From: Tissierella sp.
GTDB taxonomy: Bacteria > Bacillota > Clostridia > Tissierellales > Tissierellaceae
Direction of reading: 5' to 3'
DNA: 32,000 bases
Assembly (NCBI RefSeq): GCF_031460495.1
Contig: NZ_JAVKTS010000002.1
Coordinates: 209,332 to 241,331 of the forward strand
Shown here: positions 1 to 26,196 of the stretch, piece by piece
How the letters are laid out: every line of letters begins with the position of its first letter
Position numbering within the stretch: position 1 is the first letter of the stretch
Notes under the pieces: generated by a model
Databases searched by the model: none
What the model was told of the DNA's origin: nothing
Seen by the model: only the letters and a program-made list of their open reading frames with translations
Translations under genes and position numbers: made by a program

Positions 1-1
1 G

Positions 2-9383: not shown

Positions 9384-9980
9384 ATGGAAAAATATAGTTC
9401 AGGACTTGTATCAGAATCTTTTTGGTTTATCGAATTCAAAAAGATAATAAAGTTGAGAAATGACGGTAAATCTTGGGATGACATTAGAGATCTATGTTTA
9501 AATGATAATTTGCTTGGCATCTCGAAGGAGTATAGAGCAAGGCGTATTTATGGATACTTAAAAAATCGAGTCGATGTAATTGATGAAGGTCTAATAAATA
9601 TATTTATCAATGCGGATTTAACAACTCAGAAGATTATCAATATTATTGCCATAGCAAAGAAAAATAGATTGTTTTTTGAGTTTTTATATGAGGTATATCG
9701 TGAAAAGGTACTACTTGGCGCTATAGAGCTTACAGATAGTGACATTAATATCTTTTTCAAAAATAAGCAGGGGCAAGATGAAGATATTAGCAAATGGACA
9801 GATGTGACATTAAAAAGACTTCGTAGCACGTACATGAATTTTTTAACTGATGCAGGATTTTTAACCGGAATAGATAAACAAAGAAGTATCACACCACCGA
9901 TCTTAGAAATCTCACTGGAGAATTATCTTAAAGATAATGGCGAAAAGCAGATGCTTAAAGCTATAAGGGGGGCAGATTAA
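9384..9980 (+). CDS. brxA: BREX protein BrxA (DUF1819)
   Basis: About 198 aa, starts 'YSSGL...', helical, ends '...FLTDAGFL'. Its position is immediately 5' of brxB/brxC. Confidence 0.85.
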   Translation: MEKYSSGLVSESFWFIEFKKIIKLRNDGKSWDDIRDLCLNDNLLGISKEYRARRIYGYLKNRVDVIDEGLINIFINADLTTQKIINIIAIAKKNRLFFEFLYEVYREKVLLGAIELTDSDINIFFKNKQGQDEDISKWTDVTLKRLRSTYMNFLTDAGFLTGIDKQRSITPPILEISLENYLKDNGEKQMLKAIRGAD

Positions 9981-10565
9981 TTGCGTAATTTAGAGAGTAG
10001 GCTTAATGAATTAGAAGATAAGATAAAACAGCCAAATTTTAGAAAGAATAAAGGTCTTGGAAATGAAGTAGGTTATTATGTATTCGATTACCCAGCAGAG
10101 CAAGAGCTTACTGTGAGAGAAAGAGTGCATTATCTTGTATCAAAGTATGAAAAAAATGTTCATGATTTTAAGTTAATTGTATTTGATTTGTATGACATTA
10201 TTATAGATTTGTTGATACAAGAAGGCTTTTTAGAAATTTGCGAAGAATTTGAAAAGACGAAAGGTTTACAAGAGATTACAAGGGCAGTCAACGAGATGCT
10301 TCGTATGGAAGAAGATAACCAAAGTAATGAGATATTGGCGCATATTAAGAAAAATACACCAAAGGATTCAATTGTGTTTTTAACAGGTGTTGGGAAATGC
10401 TTTCCTATTTTGCGTTCACATAAAATTCTAAACAATTTACATCAATTTATAGATGAGGTTCCAGTTGTAATGTTTTTTCCTGGAAAGTACGATGGTCAAT
10501 CATTGATGCTTTTTTCTGAAATTAAAGATGATAATTATTACAGAGCATTTAAGCTCGTAGATTGA
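9981..10565 (+). CDS. brxB: BREX protein BrxB (DUF1788)
   Basis: 194 aa, abuts the brxA stop (TTG start). 'YYVFDYPAEQEL' is the characteristic BrxB N-terminal motif. Position fits. Confidence 0.85.
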   Translation: MRNLESRLNELEDKIKQPNFRKNKGLGNEVGYYVFDYPAEQELTVRERVHYLVSKYEKNVHDFKLIVFDLYDIIIDLLIQEGFLEICEEFEKTKGLQEITRAVNEMLRMEEDNQSNEILAHIKKNTPKDSIVFLTGVGKCFPILRSHKILNNLHQFIDEVPVVMFFPGKYDGQSLMLFSEIKDDNYYRAFKLVD

Positions 10566-10578
10566 GAGGTGGAGGATT

Positions 10579-13500
10579 ATGTTTATAAAGAATATGTTTG
10601 CTAAACCAATTGACAGAAATATAAAAGGTGTTATTAAAGTTGGACAAGGTGATGATGAAAATGTAAAGCAAGAGCTTGAAGAATATGTAGTAACAAGAGA
10701 GCTACAAAAACACTTTGCAGATTTTTTTTCTAGTTATAAAAGAGGAATTGTTGGAAATACAGATGCAATGGGTGTTTGGATTTCTGGTTTCTTTGGAAGT
10801 GGTAAATCACATTTCTTAAAAATACTATCTTACCTATTGGAAAATCGTGTTGTTGATGGAAAAACAGCACTTAATTATTTTATCGAAGACAAAAAAATAA
10901 AAGATGAAATGGTACTTGCGGATATGCAACTTGCAGCCAACGTATCAAGTGATGTTATTTTGTTTAATATTGATTCTAAAAGTGGAATGGGTGATACTCA
11001 GAATAACAAGGAAGCTATTCTTTCTGTATTTTTAAAAGTCTTTAATCAACATTTAGGGTTCTATGGGGCTAACCCTTTTTTGGCAGATTTAGAAAGGCAA
11101 CTTACAGAGGAAGGTAAATATGAAGATTTCAAAAAAGCATTTGCAGAAATACGTGGTAAGAAATGGTTAGACTCTAGACATCAATTTAGATTTATTCAGG
11201 ATGATGTATGTAAGACATTGGTTCAAATAGATTTTATGAGTATGGATGCTGCAAAAAATTGGTGTGAAAGTTCTACAGGTACCTATAATATCGACATTAT
11301 GACTTTTGCAAATATGGTTAAGAAATACATAAATAAGAAAGGTAACAATCATCACATTGTATTTCTAGTGGACGAAATTGGACAATATATTGGTGATGAT
11401 TCAAAATTAATGTTAAATCTACAGACAGTTACTGAAGATTTAGGATCTGCTTGCCACGGTAAAGCTTGGGTTGTAGTTACTAGTCAGCAGGATATTGATA
11501 GCATTACAAAAACGAAGGGAAATGATTTCTCCAAGATTCAAGGTAGATTTGATACAAGACTTTCTTTGTCATCAGCAAACGTTGATGAAGTAATACGAAA
11601 GAGAATACTTGAAAAAACAGAAACAGGAAGACAAACATTGGGGCTTCTCTACGATGAAAAAGATACGATAATCAAAAACCTTATTATTTTTAATGACGGC
11701 ATAGAAAAGAAACTATATTCGGATAGAAATGATTTTTCTGCTGTTTACCCTTTCGTTCCTTATCAGTTTAATTTGCTGGCAAGTGTACTTACTTCAATAC
11801 GGACTCATGGAGCAAGCGGTAAGCATCTAGCAGAAGGTGAGAGATCTATGCTGGCATTATTTAAAGAGTCTGCTATGAAGATTATGGAGAATTCTGAAGG
11901 ATCAATTGTTCCTTTTAATCTGTTCTATGATGCTCTTGAACAATTTTTAGATCATAGTCATAAGGGCGTTATTATCCGTGCCTATGATAATGAATACTTA
12001 AATCCTGACAAATTAGAGGATTGTTTTGATGTCAATGTTTTAAAGACACTTTTTATGATTAAATATGTCAAAGAAATTGTTGCGAATTTAGAGAACATCA
12101 CAAGCTTAATGATTTCTAATATTGATGATGATAGAATTGTACTAAAAGATAAAGTTGAGCAGTCTTTAAAACGTCTTGTTCGCCAAACTCTCATACAAAA
12201 AACTGGTGAGGTATACGTGTTTTTAACTGATGAAGAACAGGAGATTAATAGAGAAATTGAAAGTCAAAATGTTGAAATTTCTGAAGTTATTGGGAAAGTA
12301 TCAGAGATGATTTTTGATGGGTTATATTCAGAGAAAAAATACAGATATCCAGCATTTAACGGTCGATATAATTTTGGGTTTAATCAGATTGTAGATGACA
12401 GACCTTATAAGGGAAATCAAAATTACGATATCTCACTTAGAATATTAACACCAAATTATGAATCAGGTACAGATGAAACAACACTTCGCATGATGAGTGG
12501 TCAGAGTAAATGTGTTATTGTAGCACTACCAGATGATAAAGCATTTATAGATGAGATTCGCTCTGCCCTAAAGATAGAAAAGTATTTAAGATTGAATACG
12601 TCCAATAGGGTAAGTAAATATGAGCAAATCAAAGAAGCAAAACGTGTTGAAATGCGTGAGAGGAATTCAAATGCTCGCATTTTTCTGGAAGAATCTTTGA
12701 AGGATGCTGATATTTATACTAATAGTGACAAAATACAGAATGTATCAAAAGATATAGCTGTGCGTATTAATGATGCTCTTGGTAGACTTGTACATACCGT
12801 ATATCACAAGCTATCTTATATTGATACTTCAGTGGGAGAATCTCATATCAGATCAGTTTTGAAAGGAAATAATAATAATCAACTTTCCCTTGATGGTACT
12901 GATCAAACACCTAATAAACTTGCTTTAAAAGATGTCTTAGATTTTATAAGTATGAATACTCAAAGACATGCGAAGACATCTATGAAGTCCATAATGGAGC
13001 GATTTACAAAAGCACCATACGGATTTATAGAGGATGACGTTCAATGGCTAATTGCTAAATTATTTAAAGATGGTGATATAGCATTATTTGTGAACAATGA
13101 TGTGGTTACCCTATTAACCAAATCTGAGGATGAGGTCTATCGCTACCTTAGTCGTAAAGAATATCTCGAAAAGCTTCTTACAGAACAAAGAGAGAAAGCA
13201 AATGATAAGCAGAAGAAAGCTGTGAGAGAAGTTATGAAAGAGCTGTTTAATGTGTCACCAATGAGTGATGAAGATGATTCCATGTTAAAGAGCTTTCAGC
13301 AATATGCAACTAACTTAAAAAATGATCTTGAAAAGTTAGAAATTCATTACAAAAACGAACCAAGCTATCCGGGTAACAATGTTGTCAAAGATGGAAAGTC
13401 TGAGCTTATGAACTTGTTGGAAATTAAGTACTCAGTGGAATTTTTTAAGACAGTTGATGATAAATTGGATAAAATATTGGGATTTGCAGAAGATTATGAA

Positions 13501-14205
13501 CCTGTAAAAGCTTTCTTTGGTGGGGAACAGATTGAGATTTGGAATCGAAGTCTACGCTTGCTAAAGATATATGATGATAGTAAGACATTTATAGTCAACA
13601 AAGAAATTGAAACAGTGGTTGCTGAAATAAAAGGAATCATGAAGAAATCATATCCTTATAGTGAAATCAGAAAGATACCTGAACTTCTTGAGCGTTATAC
13701 AGAACATTATAATAGAATGCTCGATGAAATGGAGCAACCTGTTCTTGCTGCCATTAAAGAAGCACACTCTCGTGTTGTGGAAGAACTTGAAGGAAAAGAG
13801 TGCAAAGATATATTTTCTAAAAAGGTATATGAACGTTTTAATGAAATTAGTGAAAAAGCAAAAAGCTGTAATAATGTAGCTACCTTACAAAATATAAAAG
13901 TGGAAGCTGATGCTTTAAAAGTCCGATTGCTCAATGAGATTAGTACAGAAGAAACACGCATTATAGAATCAAAACTACTAAAACCAACACCTGAATCAGG
14001 AGCCGACAAAGTCGCTGAAAATCATATGCCTTTTATTAATAAGCCAAAGATGAAAACCCAAAAGACTGTTAGTATCAAATCAATCAATTCAGAGACTACT
14101 TGGAGGATTGAAACAGAAGCAGATGTAGACCGTTATGTTGAAACCTTAAAGGCAAAATTAAAGCAAAGTATTAAAGAAAATACAATCTTGAATATAGAAT
14201 TTTAA
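10579..14205 (+). CDS. brxC: BREX P-loop ATPase BrxC/PglY
   Basis: 1208 aa. Walker A 'GFFGSGKSHF', Walker B 'IVFLVDEIGQY', long coiled C-terminal half. GGTGGAGG RBS. Confidence 0.9.
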   Translation: MFIKNMFAKPIDRNIKGVIKVGQGDDENVKQELEEYVVTRELQKHFADFFSSYKRGIVGNTDAMGVWISGFFGSGKSHFLKILSYLLENRVVDGKTALNYFIEDKKIKDEMVLADMQLAANVSSDVILFNIDSKSGMGDTQNNKEAILSVFLKVFNQHLGFYGANPFLADLERQLTEEGKYEDFKKAFAEIRGKKWLDSRHQFRFIQDDVCKTLVQIDFMSMDAAKNWCESSTGTYNIDIMTFANMVKKYINKKGNNHHIVFLVDEIGQYIGDDSKLMLNLQTVTEDLGSACHGKAWVVVTSQQDIDSITKTKGNDFSKIQGRFDTRLSLSSANVDEVIRKRILEKTETGRQTLGLLYDEKDTIIKNLIIFNDGIEKKLYSDRNDFSAVYPFVPYQFNLLASVLTSIRTHGASGKHLAEGERSMLALFKESAMKIMENSEGSIVPFNLFYDALEQFLDHSHKGVIIRAYDNEYLNPDKLEDCFDVNVLKTLFMIKYVKEIVANLENITSLMISNIDDDRIVLKDKVEQSLKRLVRQTLIQKTGEVYVFLTDEEQEINREIESQNVEISEVIGKVSEMIFDGLYSEKKYRYPAFNGRYNFGFNQIVDDRPYKGNQNYDISLRILTPNYESGTDETTLRMMSGQSKCVIVALPDDKAFIDEIRSALKIEKYLRLNTSNRVSKYEQIKEAKRVEMRERNSNARIFLEESLKDADIYTNSDKIQNVSKDIAVRINDALGRLVHTVYHKLSYIDTSVGESHIRSVLKGNNNNQLSLDGTDQTPNKLALKDVLDFISMNTQRHAKTSMKSIMERFTKAPYGFIEDDVQWLIAKLFKDGDIALFVNNDVVTLLTKSEDEVYRYLSRKEYLEKLLTEQREKANDKQKKAVREVMKELFNVSPMSDEDDSMLKSFQQYATNLKNDLEKLEIHYKNEPSYPGNNVVKDGKSELMNLLEIKYSVEFFKTVDDKLDKILGFAEDYEPVKAFFGGEQIEIWNRSLRLLKIYDDSKTFIVNKEIETVVAEIKGIMKKSYPYSEIRKIPELLERYTEHYNRMLDEMEQPVLAAIKEAHSRVVEELEGKECKDIFSKKVYERFNEISEKAKSCNNVATLQNIKVEADALKVRLLNEISTEETRIIESKLLKPTPESGADKVAENHMPFINKPKMKTQKTVSIKSINSETTWRIETEADVDRYVETLKAKLKQSIKENTILNIEF

Positions 14206-14217
14206 CGGGAGGAAGTT

Positions 14218-17200
14218 ATGAATAAGACAGCAATTAAGAACTTTGCCATATGGGCTAGATGTAAACTCATCAGCGATATCACATATAAAGCAGGGGTTAT
14301 AGGTATCAATGAAAAATGCATATTACAGCCATTGCCAATATCCACAGATAATGTACAATTTTTTGACATTGGTACAGGAAAACCTACTGAGATTTCAAAT
14401 CATGAAATTAAGCAACGTAATGCTCTTGTACATAGAATCAAAGAAAAAGAAAGTACATCTGATTATAGAACGGCTTTTCAATTTGTTATGGAAGAAGTTG
14501 CATATACGTGGTTTAATCGCTTGGTTGCTATTCGTTTTATGGAAGTCAATGATTATCTACCTTCACGTATTCGTGTACTTTCAAGTGAAACAAAGGGAAA
14601 GTCAGAACCAGATATGGTGACGACACCCTTTGATACGGATATGAATTTCTCACCATATGAAAAAGATAGAATCGTACAGTTAAAAGATGAGAATAAATTG
14701 AATGAACTATTCCGTATGCTATTTATTAAGCAATGTAATAAATTAAATGAGGTGCTTCCCGAACTCTTCGAAGAGACATCGGACTATACAGAATTCTTAC
14801 TTAATATTTCTTTTACAGATAAAGATGGAGTTGTAAGTCATCTTATAAATGATATTGAAGAGAAAGATTTTACTGAGGCAGTAGAAATTATCGGATGGCT
14901 TTACCAGTATTATAATGAAGAACGTAAGAATGAGGTCATAAATATTTATAAAGGAACAATTAAAAAGGATGACATACCAGCAGCCACGCAGTTATTTACA
15001 ACGGATTGGGTTGTTCGTTATATGGTTGATAATTCTCTAGGTCGTTATTGGATAGAAAGAAATCCTCAGAGTAAATTACAAGATAAATTACAATATTTTT
15101 TGACACCTAAAAATGGTGAAATTCAATTTATTAATGAAAAAGTTACCCCTGAAGAGATGACGTTTTTTGACCCTTGTATGGGAAGTGGTCATATTCTTGT
15201 ATATGCCTTTGATGTACTTATGGAAATATATAGAGAGTGTGGTTATGTAGATAGAGATGCAGCACAGGCAATTGTTGAAAACAATCTATTTGGGTTGGAT
15301 ATTGATAACCGCGCTTATCAACTTGCTTATTTTGCAGTTATGATGAAAGCACGTAGTTATGATAGAAGATTTTTAACTAGAAAAATCGAACCTAATATTT
15401 CTGTAATTGAAGAAACCAATACAATTAAAAAGTTTAGCTGTGATGGTGTTACTAACGACAGAGAACAGAATAAAGTTGGTGAATATCTTGTTAATGCCTA
15501 TAAGCATGCAAAAGAAATAGGTAGTTTAATACCTATTGAAAATAGAGATTATAATGCGTTTGAAGAATATTTAAATACCTGTAACCTTTCTGGTCAGATT
15601 ACAATTGATAGCGATCATTGGAACAGAGATACTTTACCAGTAATGATAAAGGTTGTAAAACAAGCACGTATTATGATACAAAAGTATTCAGTTGTTTGTA
15701 CCAATCCTCCTTATATGAACAAATTAGAGGGGAATCTCAAAAAGTTTGTGGTTGAGAAATACAAACCATATAGTGGAGATTTATTCTCTGTGTTTATATA
15801 TAAAAATTTTGATTACTGTAAGCCAAACGGTTATTCAGCATTCATGACACCATTTGTATGGATGTTTATAAAAACTTATGAAAAACTGAGGGAATATATC
15901 ATCAATCAAAAATCAATTACTACACTTGTGCAGATGGAATATTCTGCTTTTGAGGAAGCTACTGTACCTATATGCTCTTTTGTTTTGAAAAATGGCAAAA
16001 TAGAAAAAGGATTGTATTTTAAGCTGTCTGATTTTAAAGGTGGAATGGAAGTACAGAAACAAAAAGTGTTAGAAGCAATTGAGGATAAAGAGTGTGGATA
16101 CTTTTATGAAACAAGTTCAGAAAACTTCTCCAAAATCCCTGGTTCGCCGATTGCGTATTGGGTAACTGAGAAAATTCATTTATGTTTTGAAAAAGGGAGT
16201 ATTCTTGGTGAAATTGCGAAACCTCGACAAGGTATGGCAACAACAAATAACAATCTTTTCTTAAGGCAATGGTATGAAGTTAATAATATGAAAACTTTTT
16301 TTATTGCAAAAAATAGCAAAGAAGCTTATGAGAGCAGTAAGAAATGGTTTCCATATAATAAAGGCGGAGAATATAGAAAGTGGTATGGAAATAATGATTG
16401 TTTAGTTAATTGGGAAGATGATGGCAGAGATATAAAAAAATACCTCGAAGGCAAAAATCCGAACATTCCAAGAGGTGAATCTCTTTATTTTGACAAGTGC
16501 TTTTCTTGGTCGTTAATTTCTTCTGCATCACCTGCTTTTAGATTTAAAGATTATGGAAATATATTTGATATTGCAGGAATGAGTTGTTTTTCCACCAATA
16601 ATCTCTGGTATCTGTTAGCATTGTGCAATAGTAAAATTGCACTAAAAATTCTTAGAATTTTAGCGCCTACGATTAATTTCCAAGCGGGAGATATCGCAAA
16701 TATACCTGTTATTTTTTCCAAAGAACACGAGGCACAAATAAATATTTTAGTCGATCAAAATATTTCCATCTCTAAAACTGATTGGGATTCCTTCGAAACA
16801 TCATGGGATTTTATTACTCATCCACTCATTATCTATCGTAGTAGTGCAGATTATGCCGATGTACAGATGGATAAATGGCAGTTTAAAATAGTTGATGCTT
16901 TTAGAAGTTGGGAAAGTAATACAGAAACGCAATTTAATATCCTCAAAGCCAACGAAGAAGAACTTAATCGTATTTTCATAGAAATATACGGCTTACAAGA
17001 TGAACTTACTCCCGAGGTAGAAGATAAGGATGTTACTGTCCGAAAGGCAGACCTACAAAGAGATATTAAAAGCCTTATATCCTATGCAGTTGGATGCATG
17101 TTCGGGAGATATTCCCTTGATGTAGATGGCCTTGCTTACGCAGGTGGCGAATGGAATGATAGCAAATACACCACTTTTATACCTGATGAGGATAACTGTG

Positions 17201-17790
17201 TTCCAATTACCGATGAAGAATATTTTGAAGATGACATTGTTGGTTTATTTGTTGCATTTGTAAAGAAAGTGTACGGAATTGAAACTCTTGAAGAAAATCT
17301 TGATTTTATTGCAAAAGCGCTAGGCAATAAAGGTGATACTTCAAGAGAGGTAATTCGTAACTACTTTGTAAAAGATTTTTATAAAGATCATTTAAAGATT
17401 TATCAGAAACGTCCAATTTATTGGTTATATGACAGTGGTAAACAAGATGGATTCAAAGCTCTAATATACATGCACCGTTATAATGCTGATACAACAGGTA
17501 TTGTTCGTGTTGACTACCTTCACAAAATGCAGAAAATTTATATGGGTGAAATTGATCGTATGCAGGATATGGTGGAAAATGGTACTCAAGTTCGTGAAAT
17601 TGCACAGGCAGAAAAACGGAAAGAGAAACTTATTAAACAGCTTAAAGAAACAAAAGAATATGATGAGAAAATTGCCCATATTGCTCTTAGTCGAATAGAT
17701 ATAGATCTTGATGATGGAGTAAAGGTTAATTATGAAAAAGCTCAAACAGCTCAAGATGGCAAGAAACTTGATATTCTTGGAAAGATCTAG
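14218..17790 (+). CDS. pglX: BREX N6-adenine DNA methyltransferase PglX
   Basis: 1190 aa. SAM motif 'FFDPCMGSGHILV', catalytic 'NPPY' (15703-15714). Size and position are canonical. Confidence 0.9.
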   Translation: MNKTAIKNFAIWARCKLISDITYKAGVIGINEKCILQPLPISTDNVQFFDIGTGKPTEISNHEIKQRNALVHRIKEKESTSDYRTAFQFVMEEVAYTWFNRLVAIRFMEVNDYLPSRIRVLSSETKGKSEPDMVTTPFDTDMNFSPYEKDRIVQLKDENKLNELFRMLFIKQCNKLNEVLPELFEETSDYTEFLLNISFTDKDGVVSHLINDIEEKDFTEAVEIIGWLYQYYNEERKNEVINIYKGTIKKDDIPAATQLFTTDWVVRYMVDNSLGRYWIERNPQSKLQDKLQYFLTPKNGEIQFINEKVTPEEMTFFDPCMGSGHILVYAFDVLMEIYRECGYVDRDAAQAIVENNLFGLDIDNRAYQLAYFAVMMKARSYDRRFLTRKIEPNISVIEETNTIKKFSCDGVTNDREQNKVGEYLVNAYKHAKEIGSLIPIENRDYNAFEEYLNTCNLSGQITIDSDHWNRDTLPVMIKVVKQARIMIQKYSVVCTNPPYMNKLEGNLKKFVVEKYKPYSGDLFSVFIYKNFDYCKPNGYSAFMTPFVWMFIKTYEKLREYIINQKSITTLVQMEYSAFEEATVPICSFVLKNGKIEKGLYFKLSDFKGGMEVQKQKVLEAIEDKECGYFYETSSENFSKIPGSPIAYWVTEKIHLCFEKGSILGEIAKPRQGMATTNNNLFLRQWYEVNNMKTFFIAKNSKEAYESSKKWFPYNKGGEYRKWYGNNDCLVNWEDDGRDIKKYLEGKNPNIPRGESLYFDKCFSWSLISSASPAFRFKDYGNIFDIAGMSCFSTNNLWYLLALCNSKIALKILRILAPTINFQAGDIANIPVIFSKEHEAQINILVDQNISISKTDWDSFETSWDFITHPLIIYRSSADYADVQMDKWQFKIVDAFRSWESNTETQFNILKANEEELNRIFIEIYGLQDELTPEVEDKDVTVRKADLQRDIKSLISYAVGCMFGRYSLDVDGLAYAGGEWNDSKYTTFIPDEDNCVPITDEEYFEDDIVGLFVAFVKKVYGIETLEENLDFIAKALGNKGDTSREVIRNYFVKDFYKDHLKIYQKRPIYWLYDSGKQDGFKALIYMHRYNADTTGIVRVDYLHKMQKIYMGEIDRMQDMVENGTQVREIAQAEKRKEKLIKQLKETKEYDEKIAHIALSRIDIDLDDGVKVNYEKAQTAQDGKKLDILGKI

Positions 17791-17801
17791 GGTGATGATT
17801 T

Positions 17802-18521
17802 ATGGAGAAGGAAATGATAATTTCTGATATTAATCACTTGCTTAATACTGTTAGTACCGCTATTGAGGATGAAGATTCAAATATGTCTTCGTTTATTTAT
17901 GATAATTATATTAGAATTGCCGAAGTATGCAAAAGTAATTACTTTTTAAATATTCCGTTACTTTCATTGAATGATATTCTGAATTATGAAGAAAAGGGTG
18001 GTATGCGAGGAACATATTCTGCAATTCAAACGAGTTTAAAGCAGATTAAGAGTAGAATAGAAATATATATAAGTTATAATCCGAGAACTTATACTAAACC
18101 GTATTTTATGGATATTAAAGATTCAATTATTTCAGAAATCGAACGAGCAAGTTTTGTTATTTGGATTGCTATTGCTTGGTTTACGGATCTTGATATTTAT
18201 AAAGCTTTATTATCTGCTAAAGAGCAAGGTGTAAATGTTCAAATATTAACACTCAACCATGAAAATAATAAAAATAGAGATGGTAGCTATAAGTTGGACT
18301 TTAGAAAGAAAATTGAAACTAAATACTTTTCCGGATATGTTGTAGGGCAAGAAAATTTACATCATAAATTTTGCATGATTGATTTTGAAATGGTTATTAC
18401 TGGATCATATAATTGGACTATAAGTGCAAGTAAAAATTCAGAAGATGTAATATTTGTTTATGATATAGAAACAGCAAAAAATTATGCTGAAAAATTTGTA
18501 GATTTAAAGAAAAAAGTTTAA
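17802..18521 (+). CDS. PLD-superfamily (single HKD, Nuc/BfiI-like) putative nuclease with an uncharacterised ~100-aa N-terminal region
   Basis: 'HHKFCMID' (HxKx4D) plus 'GSYNWT' at 18360-18419. Upstream, 'ASFVIWIAIAWFTDLDIYKALLSAKEQGVNVQIL' is the usual PLDc_2 beta-alpha-beta start. There are 11-nt gaps to pglX and to pglZ. Confidence 0.75.
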   Translation: MEKEMIISDINHLLNTVSTAIEDEDSNMSSFIYDNYIRIAEVCKSNYFLNIPLLSLNDILNYEEKGGMRGTYSAIQTSLKQIKSRIEIYISYNPRTYTKPYFMDIKDSIISEIERASFVIWIAIAWFTDLDIYKALLSAKEQGVNVQILTLNHENNKNRDGSYKLDFRKKIETKYFSGYVVGQENLHHKFCMIDFEMVITGSYNWTISASKNSEDVIFVYDIETAKNYAEKFVDLKKKV

Positions 18522-18532
18522 GGTGGTGAAAA

Positions 18533-21052
18533 ATGGCAGAACTTAATTTAAAACAGATAACAGATAAACTAAATAGCGAATTTGCATCAGATATCCGTAA
18601 GCTAGTCTTCTGGTATGATGCTAATGCAGAATTTGTATCAGATATAGATACATTGGAACTTGAGAATGCAAAGATTTTCAGACTTGAGAGAGACAATCAG
18701 TTTCATACGAAATATTTCTTAGAGCGTAAAGATACAAAAACTAATTATTTAATATATGCACCTTTTCCAAAGCCAGCACTAAAGGACAATCATCTGGCAG
18801 ATACAATACGCTATTCCAAAGAGTTTTTTGCAGACAGAGCCTCATTACTGGCGATCGATTTAGGTATTGATGAGAAGTATAAGCCTGTGCTACAACATTA
18901 TATTAAGTTCTTTGGGGCGAAAGATAGAACACAAAAGTTTTATGAATTGGAAATTGAGAATTTTAATAAACCAGTTATAGAAACAGCACTTATGAGTGTA
19001 ATTTGCAAGACTAAGGTTGTTTCATTTGAGGAAATTGTCAGGACCATGATTTCAGAGGGAGAGTTAGAGAATAATAAATATTTGGCTGAATTTGAGAAGT
19101 ATGATTTGATAGAACCTTTCTGGAAGATGTGTGAGGAAACCTTTGGATACACAGATATTGTACCGTCTTTATCAAAACTTATTTACACATTGTTTGTGAC
19201 CTATACCTCAAAGGTGATTCATACAGAGCTTCCACAAGCATGGAGAAATTATTGTTCTTATAAATCAGGGAATATCATAGCTTTTTTGGATAGTTTAATG
19301 AATAGCCTGATTTATAATGAGAACTTCGATGAACTTTCACAGATGGTATATGACAGCTTAAAAGGTGACGATATCTTTGAAAGAATAGGGACAGATAATA
19401 TAGTTGATTGTGAAATATTCCGTAAGGTTGATATCTTCATAATTAAATGGCTTATTGCAAGGCTTGAGAATGAAGATACCGATGCTAAATTGCATGGATA
19501 TACTATACCGGAAATTTGTCGTTTAAGAAGAAAGATGCACTATAGAAAGATATATTATTCCCATTACTATATTATTGAAAATGCCTATTACCTGATTCTT
19601 GCAGCTCACTTTGAGCCTAAGAAAACAATAGAAGAAATAGCAAATCAATATATTGTAAAAGATTATATGATTGACCAGAAATATCGCTATTTCTATTTTC
19701 ACTTTGATAAAGTGTTAAATAATACCCCATATGAATCTCTTCGTGATTTGGTAGAGAATATTTATACAAATAAATTCTTAGATGAATTGTCCGTAGAGTG
19801 GAACAAGGCCTTAGTAGATGCGAAAGCAGATACAGGGCTTATAAAACAGCAGGAATTTTTTAATAGATATATAAGAAACTCCAAAGAACGTGTTGTTGTT
19901 ATTATATCCGATGCACTCCGCTTTGAAGTAGGGCAAACCCTAATGAAAAGGTTGCAGGAAGATGAAAAATGTACAGCGAAGATTGCAGCAATGCAAAGTG
20001 TCTTACCTTCCTATACGAGATTTGGTATGTCAGCATTACTCCCACATAAAGAACTTTCTATGAGTGATGACTATAAGATTTTAGTAGATGGTAAGGTATG
20101 TGATGATTTAAAGTCGAGAGAACAAATACTACAAACTTATGTGCCAAATAGTCGAACAGTCCAATTTGATGACATAAAAACAATGAAGATAGCTGATTTG
20201 AAGGAGATATTCGTTGGACAGGATGTTGTATATATATATCATAATCAGATAGATGCCAGAGGTGATAAGCTAAATACTGAAAATGAAGTCTTTATTGCCT
20301 GCGAAGAAGCTGTAGAAGAGATTCATACTATGATAAAAAGACTTACAAGTGCCAATAACATTCATTTTATAATAACGGCAGATCATGGATTCATCTATAA
20401 ACGTGACAAACTAGCTGAAAGTGATAAAATTGGTGGCTTTCATAAGAATAATGCTTTGGTTGGCAGACGATATGTTGTTGCAAACGAAAGAGTGAATGCA
20501 GATGGTATTGGAAGTGTTACACTAGGGGATATATTAGGGAGTGATGATCAAAGGGTAGTTTCAGTTCCAATAGGCAGCGATGTTTTCAAAGTGTCTGGAG
20601 GAGGCCAAAACTATGTGCATGGCGGTTCTTCATTACAGGAATTGATTATCCCTGTCATAGATGTAAGAACTAACAAATATCATACAGAAACTAAAACGGT
20701 AAGTATTGGACTTGTGAGCTTGGTGCATAAGATTACCAATCTTATGACTAATCTTGATTTTATCCAGACAGATCCAGTTACTGATATTAATAAAGAGACG
20801 GTTTATAAACTGTTCTTTATCTCAGATGATAATGAAAAAATTTCAAATGATAATATCTACGTTGCAGATAAAAAAGATAAAGATGCAAGTAAGCGAATAT
20901 TCCGATTAAAGTTTACTTTTAAGAATAAACAATATGGTAAAAACAGAAAATATTACCTTGTTGCCTATGATGAAAAAAATGCACTTGAAGTGATTCGTCA
21001 TGAGGTAAAGATGGACTTAGCATTTGTTGATGATTTCGGGTTTAATGTTTAG
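18533..21052 (+). CDS. pglZ: BREX alkaline-phosphatase-superfamily protein PglZ
   Basis: 839 aa. 'VVVIISDALRFE' and 'IITADHGF' are PglZ-domain motifs. AGGTGGTGA RBS. Confidence 0.9.
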   Translation: MAELNLKQITDKLNSEFASDIRKLVFWYDANAEFVSDIDTLELENAKIFRLERDNQFHTKYFLERKDTKTNYLIYAPFPKPALKDNHLADTIRYSKEFFADRASLLAIDLGIDEKYKPVLQHYIKFFGAKDRTQKFYELEIENFNKPVIETALMSVICKTKVVSFEEIVRTMISEGELENNKYLAEFEKYDLIEPFWKMCEETFGYTDIVPSLSKLIYTLFVTYTSKVIHTELPQAWRNYCSYKSGNIIAFLDSLMNSLIYNENFDELSQMVYDSLKGDDIFERIGTDNIVDCEIFRKVDIFIIKWLIARLENEDTDAKLHGYTIPEICRLRRKMHYRKIYYSHYYIIENAYYLILAAHFEPKKTIEEIANQYIVKDYMIDQKYRYFYFHFDKVLNNTPYESLRDLVENIYTNKFLDELSVEWNKALVDAKADTGLIKQQEFFNRYIRNSKERVVVIISDALRFEVGQTLMKRLQEDEKCTAKIAAMQSVLPSYTRFGMSALLPHKELSMSDDYKILVDGKVCDDLKSREQILQTYVPNSRTVQFDDIKTMKIADLKEIFVGQDVVYIYHNQIDARGDKLNTENEVFIACEEAVEEIHTMIKRLTSANNIHFIITADHGFIYKRDKLAESDKIGGFHKNNALVGRRYVVANERVNADGIGSVTLGDILGSDDQRVVSVPIGSDVFKVSGGGQNYVHGGSSLQELIIPVIDVRTNKYHTETKTVSIGLVSLVHKITNLMTNLDFIQTDPVTDINKETVYKLFFISDDNEKISNDNIYVADKKDKDASKRIFRLKFTFKNKQYGKNRKYYLVAYDEKNALEVIRHEVKMDLAFVDDFGFNV

Positions 21053-21069
21053 TTTAGGAGGATGGCAGA

Positions 21070-23139
21070 ATGGCTGATTTAAATAAATTTGATGAAGTAG
21101 ATAATCCCAATACTGTCATAAATAAAAAGCTAAGACAGTATTTTGACGGGAAGATAGTCCGAAAGGATTTGACAAAATCTATTAAAGAGGGAGCTAATGT
21201 ACCCATTTACGTTCTGGAATTTTTATTGGGGCAATATTGTAGCTCTGATGATCCGGACATTATTGAAGAAGGAGTAAAAACAGTAAAAAAAATTCTAGCA
21301 GATAATTTTGTTCGCCCTGATGAAGCACAGAAGGTTTTATCTATTTTGCGTGAACAAGGTAGTTATACAGTAATAGACCGTATTACTGCTAAACTTAATA
21401 TTAAGCAAGATCGATACGAAGCAGAATTCTCGAATCTAGGAGTTAGGGAAATACTCCTTGCTCCTGATTATGTATCTAAGTTCGACAGATTACTTTGTGG
21501 TGGTATTTGGTGCATTGTTCAACTTGAATATGAATTTTTAGAAGAAGACAAAAGAGCAACTCCCATTCGTGTGAGGAAATTGACACCAATTCAGATGCCT
21601 CATATTGAGTTAGATGAAATAAAGGAAGCCAGAAAAGAATTTACAAAAGATGAGTGGATTAATATTTTACTTCGTTCTACAGGTATGGAACCAGATAAAT
21701 TTACTGAACGTGAAAAATGGCTTCTCCTTGCTCGTATGATTCCACTTGTAGAAAACAATTTTAATCTTTGTGAACTTGGTCCTCGTAGTACAGGTAAGTC
21801 CCATATTTACAAAGAGATATCACCTAATAGCATTCTTGTATCTGGAGGTCAAACTACAGTTGCTAATCTTTTTTATAACATGGCCAATAAGACAATTGGT
21901 CTGGTTGGAATGTGGGATTGTGTTGCTTTTGATGAGGTTGCAGGGATTACCTTTAAAGATAAAGACGGTATTCAGATTATGAAGGATTATATGGCATCAG
22001 GTTCATTTGCTCGTGGGAAAGAGGAAAAGGCTGCGAGTGCATCTATGGTTTTTGTAGGTAATATTAATCAAAGTGTGGATGTACTACTAAAAACCTCTCA
22101 TTTATTCGAGCCATTTCCAGAAGCTATGGCTTATGATACTGCTTTCCTTGACCGTATGCATTGTTATATCCCTGGTTGGGAAATACCGAAGTATAGACCA
22201 GATTTCTTTACAAATGAATATGGATTTATAACGGATTATTTTTCTGAATTTATGCGTGAAATGCGTAAAGAACAGTTTAGTGATATAAGTGATAAATATT
22301 TTAGATTTGGTTCTAACTTAAACCAACGTGATGTTATTGGTGTCAGAAAAATGATATCAGGGTTTGCTAAGCTTCTCTATCCAAACGAGGAATTTACAAA
22401 AGAAGATATAGCTGAGATAGTGACTATATCACTTGAACTAAGAAGACGTGTAAAAGAACAGCTTAAAAAGATAGGTGGAATGGAATTTTATGATGTGAAT
22501 TTCTCCTACATAGATAATGAAACCTTTGAAGAACATTATGTATCAGTTCCAGAACAAGGTGGAGGCAAATTGATTCCTGAAGGCATCAGTAACCCTGGAC
22601 ATGTGTATACCATATCAAGAGGTAAAACTGGTATGATAGGAGTCTATCGTTTGGAAACACAAGTTTTACCGGGCAATGGAAAATTTGAACGCACTGGTCT
22701 TGGTACTGATAGAGAAGCTAGAGAGGCTACTAATACTGCATTTAACTATCTAAAAGCTAATGGTCATTCAATCAGCAACTCTATTAGTACGACAACAAAA
22801 GATTACATCATAAATTATCAGGATTTAAATGGAATAGGAATTACTAAATACTTAACCTTACCTACACTAATTGCAATTGCATCAGCAGCACTAAATAAGC
22901 CAACCTTAAGTAGTCTTGCTGTTTTAGGTGATATCAGTATCAGTGGAACAATTTTAAAAGTAGAGGAATTGGCCAGTGTATTGCAAGTATGCCTAGATAG
23001 CGGAGCAAAGAAGGTGTTACTACCAATTACATCTGCAGCAGAGATGGGAACAGTGCCATCGGATTTGATGGGTGCTTTTAGCATAATATTTTATTCAACG
23101 CCACAAGAAGCAGTGTTTAAAGCTTTAGGTGTAGAGTAA
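21070..23139 (+). CDS. brxL: BREX Lon-like ATPase/protease-domain protein BrxL
   Basis: 689 aa. Walker A 'GPRSTGKSH', Walker B-like 'VAFDEVAG', C-terminal Lon-protease-like fold ('AVLGDISISGTILKV...GAKKVLLP'). AGGAGG RBS. Confidence 0.9.
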   Translation: MADLNKFDEVDNPNTVINKKLRQYFDGKIVRKDLTKSIKEGANVPIYVLEFLLGQYCSSDDPDIIEEGVKTVKKILADNFVRPDEAQKVLSILREQGSYTVIDRITAKLNIKQDRYEAEFSNLGVREILLAPDYVSKFDRLLCGGIWCIVQLEYEFLEEDKRATPIRVRKLTPIQMPHIELDEIKEARKEFTKDEWINILLRSTGMEPDKFTEREKWLLLARMIPLVENNFNLCELGPRSTGKSHIYKEISPNSILVSGGQTTVANLFYNMANKTIGLVGMWDCVAFDEVAGITFKDKDGIQIMKDYMASGSFARGKEEKAASASMVFVGNINQSVDVLLKTSHLFEPFPEAMAYDTAFLDRMHCYIPGWEIPKYRPDFFTNEYGFITDYFSEFMREMRKEQFSDISDKYFRFGSNLNQRDVIGVRKMISGFAKLLYPNEEFTKEDIAEIVTISLELRRRVKEQLKKIGGMEFYDVNFSYIDNETFEEHYVSVPEQGGGKLIPEGISNPGHVYTISRGKTGMIGVYRLETQVLPGNGKFERTGLGTDREAREATNTAFNYLKANGHSISNSISTTTKDYIINYQDLNGIGITKYLTLPTLIAIASAALNKPTLSSLAVLGDISISGTILKVEELASVLQVCLDSGAKKVLLPITSAAEMGTVPSDLMGAFSIIFYSTPQEAVFKALGVE

Positions 23140-23237
23140 AGGGGATTTTGTGGAGAAGAGAAAGAATCAAAAAAAGACTGTATACGAGGCGAAAGTATAA
23201 CTATCTCAATAATGCGGATATGGAGGGGCAAGTCATT

Positions 23238-23978
23238 ATGACTACTACACTAGTTAATTTTTTATTGATAAATAGTAGTGCTTTATCAATTGATATGTTT
23301 AGCTATACAGAAGACATTATGAAAGTACTATTCAAAAAAGGGTTAATAACTCAATTTAGTATTAGTGATGCAAGAGCAGATTTTGGCGATGGTACATGTA
23401 TTGTTGAGATTGTGGATACTATATACACATCAGAATATATTTACATAAAAGGCGAAGAAAAAACACATTGGCAGTTGATTTTCGAATTTGGAACATTTAC
23501 ATCATCTAGTCAGTTGCAAATAAAAATTAACTCGAATGATTATGACGTAAAAGTTGCTGATAACTATTTAGAACAACTAAAACTTTCTATCAAGAATATT
23601 GTCAAATCAGATTGGGAAAGAACTATTTGGCTAATGGATAAGGACTCTGAAATTTTGTCAATTACTCTTTATCCGAGTGTTTATAGAGTAGAAAACATGA
23701 CACGACAGTTGATAAGTGAAATAATGACTAAGGAGTATGGTATTGGTTGGTGGGATGCATATGTTCCGATACAAATAAGAAATAAGCACAAAGTCAGATT
23801 GAGTGGGTATAAATCAATTGCCCCAGGATTTGCGAATGTCGATGAAAGACTAATGTCTATTGATATTGGGGATTTAAATTCCATACTCACTTTGAAAGAG
23901 AAAAAGTGGAACCCATCATTCAGCACAGAAATAAACAATTTCTTAATAACCAGTCAGATATTAAGCTTGAAAAAATGA
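23238..23978 (+). CDS. Hypothetical protein; the C-terminal part looks like the first half of a Swt1-like HEPN domain
   Basis: GGAGGGG at 23222-23228 then ATG at 23238, preferred over the basic TTG-initiated extension from 23148. 'VENMTRQLISEIMTKEYGIGWWDAYVPIQIRNKH...IDIGDLNSIL' matches the E..lR..I...G..WW...P pattern of Swt1-type HEPN as I recall it. There is no RX4-6H in this ORF. Confidence 0.55.
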   Translation: MTTTLVNFLLINSSALSIDMFSYTEDIMKVLFKKGLITQFSISDARADFGDGTCIVEIVDTIYTSEYIYIKGEEKTHWQLIFEFGTFTSSSQLQIKINSNDYDVKVADNYLEQLKLSIKNIVKSDWERTIWLMDKDSEILSITLYPSVYRVENMTRQLISEIMTKEYGIGWWDAYVPIQIRNKHKVRLSGYKSIAPGFANVDERLMSIDIGDLNSILTLKEKKWNPSFSTEINNFLITSQILSLKK

Positions 23979-25006
23979 AAGAAGTATTATCTGACCAAAT
24001 GGAAGTTACCCTCGATCTGTGGGGAGAACAGTTTTCAAAATATTTATCAGAAGATTTTATAAAGAATTTTAAAACATTTGAGTTAAACCGTAACCATGTT
24101 GTTCATAACAAATTGATTGATCGTACGGCATATAGTAGTATATTCAACTCTATAAATATAGTAGAAGTAGAACTAAAAAAAGCATTGCAGAAAGTCGGGG
24201 AAATTGTTGTTTCCAGAGAACAAAGGGATGCAATTGAAGAACAAATGTATATAGCTCAACAGGAATCAGAAGCCGCGCTACATGAAATAATGGAGTCAGA
24301 GACTGGTGTTGAAATTAGGAATTCAGAGGAAATCATCGACTTGTATGACGAGTATTTATATCAATTTCACTCAGAACTTCAAGATTATTTAAGATTTCGC
24401 AATGACTTAGAAGTTGGAGAATATCAAAATATTTTATCTAAAAATAATGCTGGTACATTGTTTGAAATTACATATAAAATTAACGATAAAGTAGCCATAG
24501 TTAGCTATTCTATTGAATCTATTGATGATTCTCAGGGCGGAGAAAGTACTGTCGAGATAATAATTACATTAGATGAAAAAAGCGAATCTCATTCAATTAC
24601 TTATAGGAATGGAGAGGTGGTTTTTAACTCATACCAAGGGTGCTATTTACCAGAAACTCAAGATGCTATTTCCACAGAAGACATAGGTTTGCTAAAGGAT
24701 TATCTTGTAGAATTTCTCGATACTTATTTTGAAAATATTCGTGAGAAAGTGGATTCAGAAATGTATTCGATTATAAAAGATGGTGGGAATAGTCCCGTGG
24801 CGGACATTTCATGCTGTGAGTGTGGTGAAGAGTATATCTGTGTAGATGAAAATTATGGTGTATTTGGACAATGTCTAAATTGCGGAGAGATGAACGAAAT
24901 TTGTTTATGCGACAGGTGTGGTTGCTATTTTGAAGGTGAATCAAACGAATATAGAGATGCTCCAAACTTGTGTGATAGTTGTCAAGACTATTACGAAAAT
25001 CAATGA
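23975..25006 (+). CDS. Hypothetical protein with an N-terminal HEPN RX4H segment and a C-terminal four-CxxC zinc-ribbon cluster
   Basis: The ATG at 23975 overlaps the upstream TGA (ATGA). This frame is open from 23864. 'LWGEQF...FELNRNHVVHNKLID' carries RX4H at 24089-24106. The C-terminus reads 'CCECG...CLNCG...CDRCGC...CDSC'. Confidence 0.55.
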   Translation: MKEVLSDQMEVTLDLWGEQFSKYLSEDFIKNFKTFELNRNHVVHNKLIDRTAYSSIFNSINIVEVELKKALQKVGEIVVSREQRDAIEEQMYIAQQESEAALHEIMESETGVEIRNSEEIIDLYDEYLYQFHSELQDYLRFRNDLEVGEYQNILSKNNAGTLFEITYKINDKVAIVSYSIESIDDSQGGESTVEIIITLDEKSESHSITYRNGEVVFNSYQGCYLPETQDAISTEDIGLLKDYLVEFLDTYFENIREKVDSEMYSIIKDGGNSPVADISCCECGEEYICVDENYGVFGQCLNCGEMNEICLCDRCGCYFEGESNEYRDAPNLCDSCQDYYENQ

Positions 25007-25029
25007 AAGGACAAAAGAATTCTAAATTA

Positions 25030-25060
25030 AGCTCCCACTGTTCTAAGAATAGCAGGAGCT
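25030..25060. terminator. Hairpin between convergent genes (end of the BREX operon / end of immA)
   Basis: AGCTCC (25030-25035) pairs with GGAGCT (25055-25060), with further internal pairing. It lies exactly between the 25006 stop and the 25061 stop. The flanking T-tracts are weak. Confidence 0.45.
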
Positions 25061-25600: not shown

Positions 25601-25638
25601 TCTACTATTCCCCTGTTATTATACTAAAAAAGTTGGAC

Positions 25639-26061: not shown

Positions 26062-26110
26062 AATATCCTCCTTGAATATGAAGTTATATTTCATAAAACG
26101 TATTTTACTA

Positions 26111-26139
26111 TTGACATATGATGGTTATCTTCATATAAT
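26111..26139 (+). promoter_or_regulatory. Consensus sigma-70 promoter driving rightward genes
   Basis: TTGACA (26111-26116), exactly 17 nt, TATAAT (26134-26139). Confidence 0.75.
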
Positions 26140-26141
26140 AT

Positions 26142-26190
26142 AAATGTGAAGAATAACTACACATACTATAGTACATAAATCTTCACATTT
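26142..26190. promoter_or_regulatory. 11-bp perfect inverted repeat (putative XRE operator pair) plus a related half-site in the promoter spacer
   Basis: AAATGTGAAGA (26142-26152) and TCTTCACATTT (26180-26190). A related ATCTTCATAT lies at 26127-26136, overlapping the -10 element. A tandem GTCAATA x2 lies at 26192-26205. Confidence 0.6.
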
Positions 26191-26196
26191 TGTCAA
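26168..26196 (-). promoter_or_regulatory. Candidate leftward promoter for the XRE/ImmA operon
   Basis: The minus strand reads TTGACA (plus 26191-26196), 17 nt, TACTAT (plus 26168-26173). It overlaps the right operator arm. Confidence 0.5.

What the first reader, a model, noticed from the sequence alone, without database searches (positions are those of the whole stretch)
17802..18521. PLD-family (single HKD) nuclease gene embedded between pglX and pglZ of a type 1 BREX operon
Seen: a 239-aa ORF on the operon strand, 11 nt after the pglX stop and 11 nt before the pglZ start. It carries one HxKx4D motif (HHKFCMID) plus GSYNWT at 18360-18419, and an N-terminal ~100 aa with no motif I recognise. 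Established: the canonical type 1 order brxA-brxB-brxC-pglX-pglZ-brxL contains no nuclease, and how BREX blocks phage replication is unresolved. Single-HKD PLD proteins (Nuc, BfiI) act as dimeric nucleases, and PLD nucleases are effectors in other defence systems such as Mokosh. Other BREX loci are known to host embedded accessory defence genes (BrxU, PARIS). Inference: this may be a BREX-coupled nuclease arm, a restriction-like effector gated by PglX methylation. Alternatively it is an independent defence gene using the operon. I know of no description of either arrangement at this position.
Basis: partly seen in the sequence, partly recalled or inferred. Interest (0 to 1): 0.8.

Follow-up and report, generated by a model that had tools for sequence, protein, structure and literature searches.

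The report
Swappable PLD nuclease cassette inside BREX
A small gene for a Nuc-like phospholipase-D-family nuclease really does sit between pglX and pglZ of a complete BREX phage-defence operon. Comparison with related operons shows it is one of many interchangeable cargo genes at a known insertion hotspot, not a built-in BREX restriction arm.

Summary
ORF 17802-18521 (239 aa) lies 11 nt after pglX and 11 nt before pglZ in a complete type 1 BREX operon on a Tissierella conjugative element. It has an intact HxKx4D/GSxN/E catalytic set and a Nuc/NucT-like fold. Its N-terminal three-helix bundle matches nothing known.

The preferred interpretation, a BREX-coupled nuclease arm, is not supported. 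An almost identical element (99.4% DNA identity downstream) carries a 101-aa YjcQ gene in exactly the same slot, and the next closest BREX loci carry nothing there. Of 69 related BREX loci, 44 hold unrelated cargo in the slot (OLD/TOPRIM, TIR, HEPN, Schlafen, RES, Abi and others).

The full-length PLD family is small. In 8 of 13 lineages with known context it lies inside BREX at this slot. It also occurs without BREX, beside other defence genes.

The hotspot (Went 2024) and auxiliary HKD nucleases in BREX (Rakesh & Krishnan 2026) are already published, and PglZ itself is now known to be a nuclease. I rate this a new member of a known kind, of moderate interest.

The parts
17802..18521 (+). PLD-family gene (239 aa; NCBI WP_310443557.1, annotated only as 'phospholipase D-like domain-containing protein', Tissierella sp.)
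17802..18095 (+). N-terminal domain, aa 1-98. Predicted three-helix bundle (helices 2-22, 26-43, 56-92). No Pfam, PDB-sequence or significant fold match.
18126..18500 (+). PLDc_2 catalytic domain, aa 109-233, with a Nuc/NucT-like fold
18360..18383 (+). HxKx4D motif (H187, K189, D194), invariant in 18 family members
18402..18419 (+). GSYNWT motif (G201 and N204 invariant, S202 nearly invariant). The invariant E214 lies at 18441-18443.
17790..18519 (+). Cassette as delimited by comparison with L212. Homology stops at the pglX stop codon and resumes at the pglZ ribosome-binding site. L212 holds a YjcQ gene here, and L099/L100 hold only 46 nt.
18385..18413 (+). Best sigma-70-like match in 8.4-25.2 kb (TTGAAA-17-TATAAT, 11/12), inside the PLD gene and 120 nt upstream of pglZ. 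It overlaps the codons for the conserved SYNW motif, so it may be a by-product of coding.
9384..17790 (+). brxA, brxB, brxC, pglX (first BREX block)
18533..23139 (+). pglZ and brxL (second BREX block). The invariant columns of the five-locus PglZ alignment include window T495 and H696. BrxL is the Lon-type, not the HKD-type.

Best explanation
The gene encodes an intact, cytoplasmic, single-HKD enzyme of the Nuc/NucT/Zucchini branch of the PLD superfamily. By analogy with that branch, two subunits would pair to form one active site and cut phosphodiester bonds of nucleic acid without metal, through a phospho-histidine intermediate (inferred, not shown here). A family-specific N-terminal three-helix bundle is attached. 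It probably controls pairing, activation or target sensing (inferred).

The gene is not part of the BREX core. It is a self-contained cargo cassette sitting exactly between the pglX stop codon and the pglZ ribosome-binding site. This is the junction of the two BREX transcription units and a known hotspot where unrelated defence genes are exchanged (shown here).

It most likely serves as an accessory, second-layer anti-phage effector. It would be co-expressed and co-mobilised with BREX on a conjugative element and able to act without BREX. Any cooperation with BREX would be optional rather than obligatory (inferred).
For: Catalytic competence and fold:
- PLDc_2 E 2.8e-22.
- H187, K189, D194, G201, N204 and E214 are invariant, and S202 nearly so, across 18 homologues at 24-97% identity.
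- AF2 model pLDDT 87. Top fold hits are NucT 6ehi (E 6e-11, TM 0.76), Nuc 1byr and Zucchini.

Cassette nature:
- L212/L213 share the same ICE and BREX. DNA identity is 99.4% over 6.5 kb from window 18520 onward and 91% up to 17789. They carry a 101-aa YjcQ gene in place of the PLD.
- L099/L100 (PglZ 91% identical) have a 46-nt gap.
- Of 69 evaluable related loci, 24 have no insert and 44 have inserts of at least 500 nt. Only one of these (the L001 contig) holds this PLD.
- Other cargo in the slot includes OLD/TOPRIM, AAA_21, YaaC, CAP12/Pycsar TIR, HEPN-ApeA, Schlafen, RES, Abi_C and RhuM.
- In a PglZ tree, near-identical PglZ clades carry different cargo, and PLD-bearing loci are scattered.
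- The PLD gene has the lowest GC in the operon, 0.29 against 0.32-0.35.

Autonomy: full-length homologues with the same N-domain occur outside BREX.
- In a prophage end beside PDC-S32/AbiJ-like and lysis genes (P0012).
- After a DrmD-like helicase plus type III R-M, next to PDC-M22 (P0014).
- After an HNH type IV-like gene (P0013).
- After a Barstar-domain gene (P0004).

Precedent: embedded PARIS between pglX and pglZ can be deleted without changing BREX methylation or defence (PMC11341690, PMC9009780).
Against: - Eight of 13 lineages of the narrow full-length family lie in this very slot of BREX loci whose core proteins are only 44-52% identical. Two other PLD architectures also sit in or beside pglX: Runella PLD-DnaJ and a PLD cassette splitting pglX in L119/L132. 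Such recurrence could reflect a functional preference for BREX rather than only cassette shuffling between BREX loci.
- There is no adjacent immunity gene, so how a cytoplasmic nuclease is kept harmless is unexplained. Gating by methylation would solve that.
- Nuclease activity, dimerisation and substrate are inferred from family membership only.
Confidence: 0.6

Rival explanations
1. BREX-coupled auxiliary nuclease. The PLD dimer is recruited or licensed by the BREX complex and degrades DNA that PglX recognises as unmethylated. This would be analogous to DrmC in DISARM, to BrxL-HKD fusions, or to MtsD in MANTIS.
For: - The family recurs in the pglX-pglZ slot of diverged BREX loci, in 8 of 13 lineages.
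- One non-BREX member follows another methylation-based system, a type III R-M with a DrmD-like helicase.
- The best PADLOC hit is DrmC (E 3e-9).
- Spacing within the operon is tight, 11 nt on each side.
- HKD nucleases are fused to BrxL in about 35% of type 1 BREX (PMC12839542).
- No immunity gene is present.
Against: - The gene is absent or replaced in near-identical BREX elements that are otherwise intact.
- Only 1 of 69 related BREX loci has it.
- Homologues with the same architecture occur without BREX.
- The N-domain is equally conserved in BREX and non-BREX members, so it is not a BREX-specific adaptor.
- PglZ in this locus keeps T495 and H696. These sit in motifs I take, from family knowledge and without an alignment, to match the metal-site residues T538 and H741 of E. 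fergusonii PglZ (PMC12205998). If so, no missing nuclease needs replacing.
- The DrmC match lies far below NCBIfam's cut-off (18.5 against 133 bits).
Confidence: 0.22
2. A function for the mobile element rather than defence, for example a Nuc-like nuclease serving conjugation or entry of the ICE, as with Nuc of plasmid pKM101. Alternatively, a neutral passenger whose main effect is to supply a promoter for pglZ-brxL.
For: - The operon lies on a conjugative element with a MobL relaxase, T4 coupling protein and serine recombinases.
- Nuc (1byr) is plasmid-borne and among the best structural matches.
- The strongest promoter-like site of the region lies inside the gene, 120 nt before pglZ.
Against: - There is no signal peptide or hydrophobic N-terminus (sequence), whereas Nuc and NucT are exported (established knowledge).
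- Homologues sit in BREX or defence contexts regardless of any ICE.
- The total count of promoter-like sites does not exceed shuffled sequence (81 against 83 expected), and the site overlaps constrained SYNW codons.
- The catalytic residues are conserved, which argues against a neutral passenger.
Confidence: 0.08
3. A catalytically inert PLD-like scaffold of the FAM83/SACK1 (DUF1669) type that only binds a partner.
For: Pfam SACK1 matches above its cut-off (43.5 against 21.4 bits). FAM83 structures are among the fold hits.
Against: The full HxKx4D, GSxN and Glu set is kept in all 18 homologues. NucT and Nuc score better than FAM83. The SACK1 match overlaps PLDc_2 and looks like clan-level similarity.
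Confidence: 0.03

Closest known systems
Accessory defence genes embedded between pglX and pglZ of type 1 BREX (PARIS ariAB in Salmonella; BrxU, reported by Went 2024 as the commonest known system between pglZ and pglX; survey in PMC11341690; auxiliary-nuclease catalogue in PMC12839542)
   Same: Same slot and same operon strand. Presence varies among close relatives. Cargo is swapped between otherwise near-identical BREX loci.
   Different: The cargo here is a 239-aa single-HKD PLD protein with a new N-terminal helical domain. It matches no named system in PADLOC at system level. The 2026 catalogue mentions HKD nucleases mainly as BrxL C-terminal fusions, not as this stand-alone family.
Nuc (pKM101, PDB 1byr) and NucT (H. 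pylori, PDB 6ehi)
   Same: Single HKD domain of about 140 aa, the same catalytic residues and the same fold (TM 0.76 normalised to target). A homodimeric, metal-independent nuclease mechanism is therefore expected.
   Different: It has an extra 100-aa N-terminal helical bundle and no export signal. It scores 27-37 bits against NCBIfam NucT models whose cut-offs are 211-351. Identity is 24-27%.
DrmC, the PLD protein of DISARM
   Same: A small stand-alone PLD nuclease encoded within a methylation-based multi-gene defence operon. The DISARM methylase DrmMI is a PglX homologue. DrmC is reported as dispensable for DISARM defence (my recollection of Ofir 2018, not checked here).
   Different: Only weak domain-level similarity (PADLOC E 3e-9; NCBIfam 18.5 against 133 bits). 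There is no drmA or drmB in the window. The N-terminal domain is different.
BrxL-HKD fusions of type 1 BREX and MtsD of MANTIS (BREX-related type 2)
   Same: An HKD/PLD nuclease genetically tied to BREX-type machinery (PMC12839542; bioRxiv 10.64898/2026.09.23.753747).
   Different: Those nucleases are fused to an ATPase or helicase motor and are fixed components. BrxL-HKD has an HRD variant motif. Here the PLD is free-standing, has a true HKD, and BrxL is the Lon-type. Direct sequence comparison with a BrxL-HKD domain could not be made.

Membership tests
PLD superfamily, PLDc_2 (PF13091) | HxK(x)4D motif with downstream GSxN, and a Pfam score above the gathering cut-off | tested here: met
   HHKFCMID and GSYNWT are present. 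Score is 79.4 bits against a cut-off of 27.
Nuc-like single-HKD nuclease branch (Nuc/NucT/Zucchini) | One HKD domain per chain, with a fold closest to Nuc/NucT rather than to two-HKD phospholipases or synthases | tested here: met
   Top fold hits are 6ehi, 1byr and 4ggj (E 6e-11 to 1.5e-9). Two-HKD enzymes (PLD2, PssA, F13) rank lower with poor TM.
Nuc-like single-HKD nuclease branch | Homodimer forming one composite active site, with metal-independent nuclease activity | not testable with these tools
   No multimer prediction or assay was available. This is inferred from the family.
NucT / Nuc orthologues (NCBIfam equivalogs NF010490-NF010493) | Score above the curated equivalog cut-off, and an exported protein | tested here: not met
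   27-37 bits against cut-offs of 211-351. No signal-like N-terminus.
DISARM DrmC | NCBIfam DrmC_I equivalog score, and a drmA/drmB context | tested here: not met
   18.5 against 133 bits. The operon proteins are BREX proteins, with no DrmA or DrmB.
Mokosh MkoB/MkoC | PLD nuclease together with, or fused to, an RNA helicase | tested here: not met
   Only PLD-domain-level hits (E 4e-7 and 7.5e-3). There is no helicase partner in the operon.
Type 1 BREX (the host operon) | brxA-brxB-brxC-pglX-pglZ-brxL all present and co-oriented | tested here: met
   All six have strong Pfam and PADLOC matches.
Type 1 BREX core component (would the PLD qualify?) | Conserved presence across related BREX loci | tested here: not met
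   Present in 1 of 69 evaluable loci with PglZ 56-96% identical. Replaced by YjcQ in a 99.4%-identical element.
BREX pglX-pglZ hotspot cargo | Located between pglX and pglZ on the operon strand, variable among close relatives, with alternative unrelated genes at the same point | tested here: met
   The hotspot is described in PMC11341690.
FAM83/SACK1 pseudo-PLD (PF07894) | PLD-like fold acting as a scaffold, generally without a complete catalytic set | tested here: inconclusive
   The Pfam score passes (43.5 against 21.4). However, the match overlaps PLDc_2 and the catalytic residues are all retained.

The most novel reading that the evidence does not exclude
The small family (N-terminal helical bundle plus Nuc-like PLD) is a genuine BREX-licensed nuclease. 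It has spread from BREX locus to BREX locus because it reads the BREX self/non-self decision, for instance by docking on PglX, PglZ-BrxB or BrxL. This would give these BREX variants a true restriction-endonuclease arm and a simple handle on how BREX signals 'foreign DNA'.
Probability: 0.15. Interest if true: 0.7.

Novelty: new member of a known kind. Interest (0 to 1): 0.4.

Why it matters
If it works as proposed, this adds an uncharacterised, very compact (about 240 aa) candidate defence nuclease family to the set of genes that ride in the BREX pglX-pglZ hotspot. About 5000 of roughly 7000 surveyed inter-pglX/pglZ inserts have no known function (PMC11341690), so each identified family helps to read them.

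The three natural variants found here form a ready-made experiment: PLD (the window), YjcQ (L212) and an empty slot (L099/L100). The window and L212 share almost the same ICE and BREX backbone, while L099/L100 is a more distant relative (about 88% DNA identity across pglZ-brxL). Comparing them would show whether slot cargo modulates BREX.

If the minority reading were right, it would supply a direct genetic link between BREX recognition and DNA cleavage.

Full report
**1. Observation**

The window holds an ATG-initiated ORF at 17802-18521 on the + strand, 239 aa.
- pglX ends at 17790 and pglZ starts at 18533. The two spacers are 11 nt each and each contains a purine-rich ribosome-binding site.
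- HHKFCMID is encoded at 18360-18383 and GSYNWT at 18402-18419.
- Pfam gives PLDc_2 for aa 109-233 (E 2.8e-22) and nothing for aa 1-100.
- The surrounding genes are a complete type 1 BREX set, brxA-brxB-brxC-pglX-[PLD]-pglZ-brxL. Pfam and PADLOC matches are mostly at E = 0.
- BrxL is the Lon-type.
- The exact protein is in NCBI as WP_310443557.1 from Tissierella sp., annotated only as 'phospholipase D-like domain-containing protein'.

**2. What the protein is**

By sequence, the nearest solved structures are NucT (6ehi, E 3.5e-9), Nuc (1byr, 2e-7), FAM83B and Zucchini/MitoPLD.

An AlphaFold2 model built on 18 homologues is confident (pLDDT 87). Its best fold matches are NucT (E 6e-11, TM 0.76 on the target), Nuc and Zucchini. 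Two-HKD phospholipases, phosphatidylserine synthase and poxvirus F13 rank lower with poor superposition. The refutation condition 'models as a phospholipid-type PLD' is therefore not met.

H187, K189, D194, G201, N204 and E214 are invariant, and S202 nearly so, in 18 family members down to 24% identity. The enzyme is therefore expected to be active.

It is not an orthologue of NucT, DpdK or DrmC. NCBIfam scores are 18-37 bits against cut-offs of 100-351. PADLOC gives only domain-level hits to DrmC, MkoC, DpdK and MkoB.

The N-terminal 98 residues fold, alone or in context, into a three-helix bundle. This bundle has no significant relative:
- by profile search of 5.8 billion proteins;
- by PDB sequence search;
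- by fold search, where the best E is 0.3.

There is no hydrophobic or signal-like N-terminus, so the protein should be cytoplasmic (sequence).

**3. The family and where it lives**

An exhaustive HMMER search found about 12,000 proteins sharing the PLD domain. Only about 14 cluster representatives match over the full length including the N-domain. I obtained genomic context for 13 lineages.

Eight lie between pglX and pglZ of type 1 BREX loci:

| Lineage | PLD identity to window |
|---|---|
| the window | - |
| P0001 | 97% |
| P0002 | 60% |
| P0003 | 46% |
| Acetobacterium MAG L010 | 45% |
| P0010 | 45% |
| P0011 | 44% |
| P0015 | 36% |

Five do not lie in BREX:

| Lineage | Context |
|---|---|
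| P0012 | End of a prophage, beside a PDC-S32/AbiJ-like gene and the lysis cassette |
| P0014 | After a DrmD-like SNF2 helicase and a type III R-M pair, and before PDC-M22 |
| P0013 | After an HNH type IV-like gene |
| P0004 | After a Barstar-domain gene |
| P0016 | After an unknown gene |

The family is therefore strongly tied to defence loci and enriched in BREX, but it does not depend on BREX. The N-domain is equally conserved in both groups. In a rough NJ tree without support values, the BREX members fall mostly in one clade, with P0012 and P0013 nested inside it.

**4. Is it part of BREX or cargo?**

I fetched 80 metagenomic BREX loci whose PglZ is 56-96% identical to the window's. I then measured the distance from the pglX end to the pglZ start.
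- 69 loci were evaluable.
- 24 have no insert (12-61 nt). These include the closest PLD-less relatives in this set, L099 and L100 (PglZ 91% identical, gap 46 nt).
- 44 have inserts of 0.6-3.6 kb.
- Only one insert is this PLD, and that locus is the same contig as L001.

The other inserts form more than 20 unrelated families on the operon strand. They include OLD-type ATPase/TOPRIM, AAA_21/AbiEii-like ATPases, YaaC, CAP12/Pycsar-type TIR, HEPN-ApeA, Schlafen-AlbA_2 with HATPase_c_4, RES, Abi_C, RhuM and many unknowns.

In a PglZ tree, clades with nearly identical PglZ carry different cargo. The PLD-bearing loci are scattered: the window nests among empty loci, and the others sit on deep branches.

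The sharpest case is L212/L213. These carry the same conjugative element and the same BREX.
- DNA identity to the window is 99.4% from 18520 to 25032 and 91% up to 17789.
- Between those two points they hold a 101-aa YjcQ-family gene instead of the PLD.

The exchange unit runs exactly from the pglX stop codon to the pglZ ribosome-binding site (aaGGYGGTGAAA), which is shared by the window, L212 and L099.

Two further observations fit a mosaic history:
- The PLD gene has the lowest GC of the operon (0.29 against 0.32-0.35).
- Between the window and L001, the PLD differs by 1.0% at DNA level, pglZ by 4.8%, and PglX by 33% at protein level.

**5. Literature**

- Went et al. 2024 (PMC11341690) report that about 7000 of about 9000 genomes with linked pglX and pglZ have one or more genes between them. 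About 5000 of these hold no known system. BrxU and PARIS are the commonest known ones. Deleting the embedded PARIS does not change BREX methylation or defence. The same holds for StySA (PMC9009780).
- Type 1 BREX of Bacillus cereus is transcribed as brxABC-pglX and pglZ-brxL (Goldfarb 2015, as cited in PMC9881135). The slot is therefore the junction between two transcription units.
- Readshaw et al. 2025 (PMC12205998) showed that PglZ is itself a metal-dependent nuclease that contributes to defence.
- Rakesh & Krishnan 2026 (PMC12839542) catalogued auxiliary nucleases (REase, HNH, HKD, OLD/TOPRIM, HEPN, Schlafen, PIN) embedded in BREX loci. They found HKD domains mainly as C-terminal fusions of BrxL (1030 of 2913 taxa).
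- MANTIS, a BREX-related system, uses a PLD-helicase as its effector (bioRxiv 10.64898/2026.09.23.753747).

None of the papers read here describes this particular stand-alone family.

**6. Mechanism**

Shown here:
- an intact Nuc-like catalytic domain;
- a novel helical N-domain;
- exact cassette behaviour at a hotspot;
- occurrence of the family with and without BREX;
- defence-type neighbours throughout.

Inferred:
- homodimerisation and metal-independent phosphodiester cleavage through phospho-histidine, from the Nuc/NucT/Zucchini family;
- nucleic acid as substrate;
- a regulatory or sensing role for the N-domain;
- an anti-phage function.

My best reading (confidence about 0.6) is an autonomous or loosely cooperating second-layer effector that rides in the BREX hotspot.

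The main rival (about 0.22) is a BREX-licensed nuclease. It draws support from three points:
- the family's striking preference for this slot in very different BREX loci;
- two further PLD architectures at or in pglX, namely Runella PLD-DnaJ and a three-gene PLD cassette that splits pglX at about residue 880 in L119/L132;
- the absence of any immunity gene.

It is weakened by the presence/absence pattern and by the non-BREX members. In addition, PglZ here keeps T495 and H696. These lie in motifs that I take, from family knowledge and without an alignment, to correspond to the metal-site residues T538 and H741 of E. fergusonii PglZ. If so, no nuclease is 'missing' from the operon. How self-damage is avoided remains unexplained under either reading.

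**7. Verdict**

The feature is real and was accurately observed. It is an ordinary instance of a known phenomenon (cargo in the BREX pglX-pglZ hotspot; an auxiliary HKD nuclease) involving an uncharacterised protein family. I rate it a new member of a known kind, interest 0.4. The most novel surviving reading, a true BREX-gated restriction arm, has a probability of about 0.15.

Noticed in passing
window 23148-25006: The gene after brxL is split here into two overlapping ORFs (276 aa at 23148-23978 and 366 aa at 23906-25006). In the 99.4%-identical element L212 it is one 595-aa ORF (10151-11938). The window therefore carries a frameshift near 23950, either a pseudogene or a sequencing error. 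The N-part hits candidate defence family PDC-M34B (E 3e-10) and weakly HEPN_Swt1. The C-end is Cys-rich and looks like a zinc ribbon.
   Followed up: partly
window 1-8410 and 25061-31064: The BREX operon is cargo of an integrative conjugative or mobilisable element. Components: MobL relaxase (11-1369), DUF3991/Toprim (5088-6503), type IV coupling protein (6527-8410), ImmA/IrrE peptidase plus XRE repressor (25061-26094, minus strand), a sigma-70 region-4 protein (27188-27661) and a large serine recombinase (28544-30133), followed by a second ORF (30144-31064) that was not scanned. The same backbone is seen in L212.
   Followed up: partly
window 1534-4634: Two further possible defence or accessory genes on the element: a HEPN_Cthe2314-like protein (1534-2301, E 4.5e-8) and a 648-aa SEC-C-motif plus TPR protein (2688-4634).
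   Followed up: no
L119 766-7000 and L132 1033-7000: In two metagenome BREX loci, pglX is split at about residue 880 into an 871-aa gene and a 321-aa gene. Three inserted genes lie between them: an unknown of 294 aa, a 255-aa PLD related to P0064, and an unknown of 163 aa. No inverted pglX fragments were seen, so this does not look like a shufflon.
   Followed up: partly
L087 (Runella defluvii) 9995-18291: A Bacteroidota BREX-like locus has, directly after pglX, a 458-aa PLD-DnaJ fusion. It is followed by unknowns, a protein kinase, a DUF4407 protein and a Schlafen/AlbA_2 protein. No pglZ lies within the 10 kb fetched.
   Followed up: partly
window 14218-17790 vs L001 3813-7466: Between the window and L001, BrxC (99%), PLD (97%) and PglZ (96%) are nearly identical, but PglX is only 67% identical. 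This suggests replacement of the PglX specificity region within an otherwise conserved operon.
   Followed up: no
window 18385-18413: The best sigma-70-like site in 17 kb (TTGAAA-17-TATAAT) lies inside the PLD gene, 120 nt upstream of pglZ. It could drive pglZ-brxL. However, its -10 box is formed by the Tyr-Asn codons of the catalytic GSYNW motif, and promoter-like sites overall are no more frequent than in shuffled sequence.
   Followed up: no
L003 6738-7325; L010 9004-9756: In two PLD-bearing BREX loci, a second and mutually unrelated unknown ORF (195 aa and 250 aa) sits between pglX and the PLD. Neither has a Pfam or PADLOC match.
   Followed up: partly
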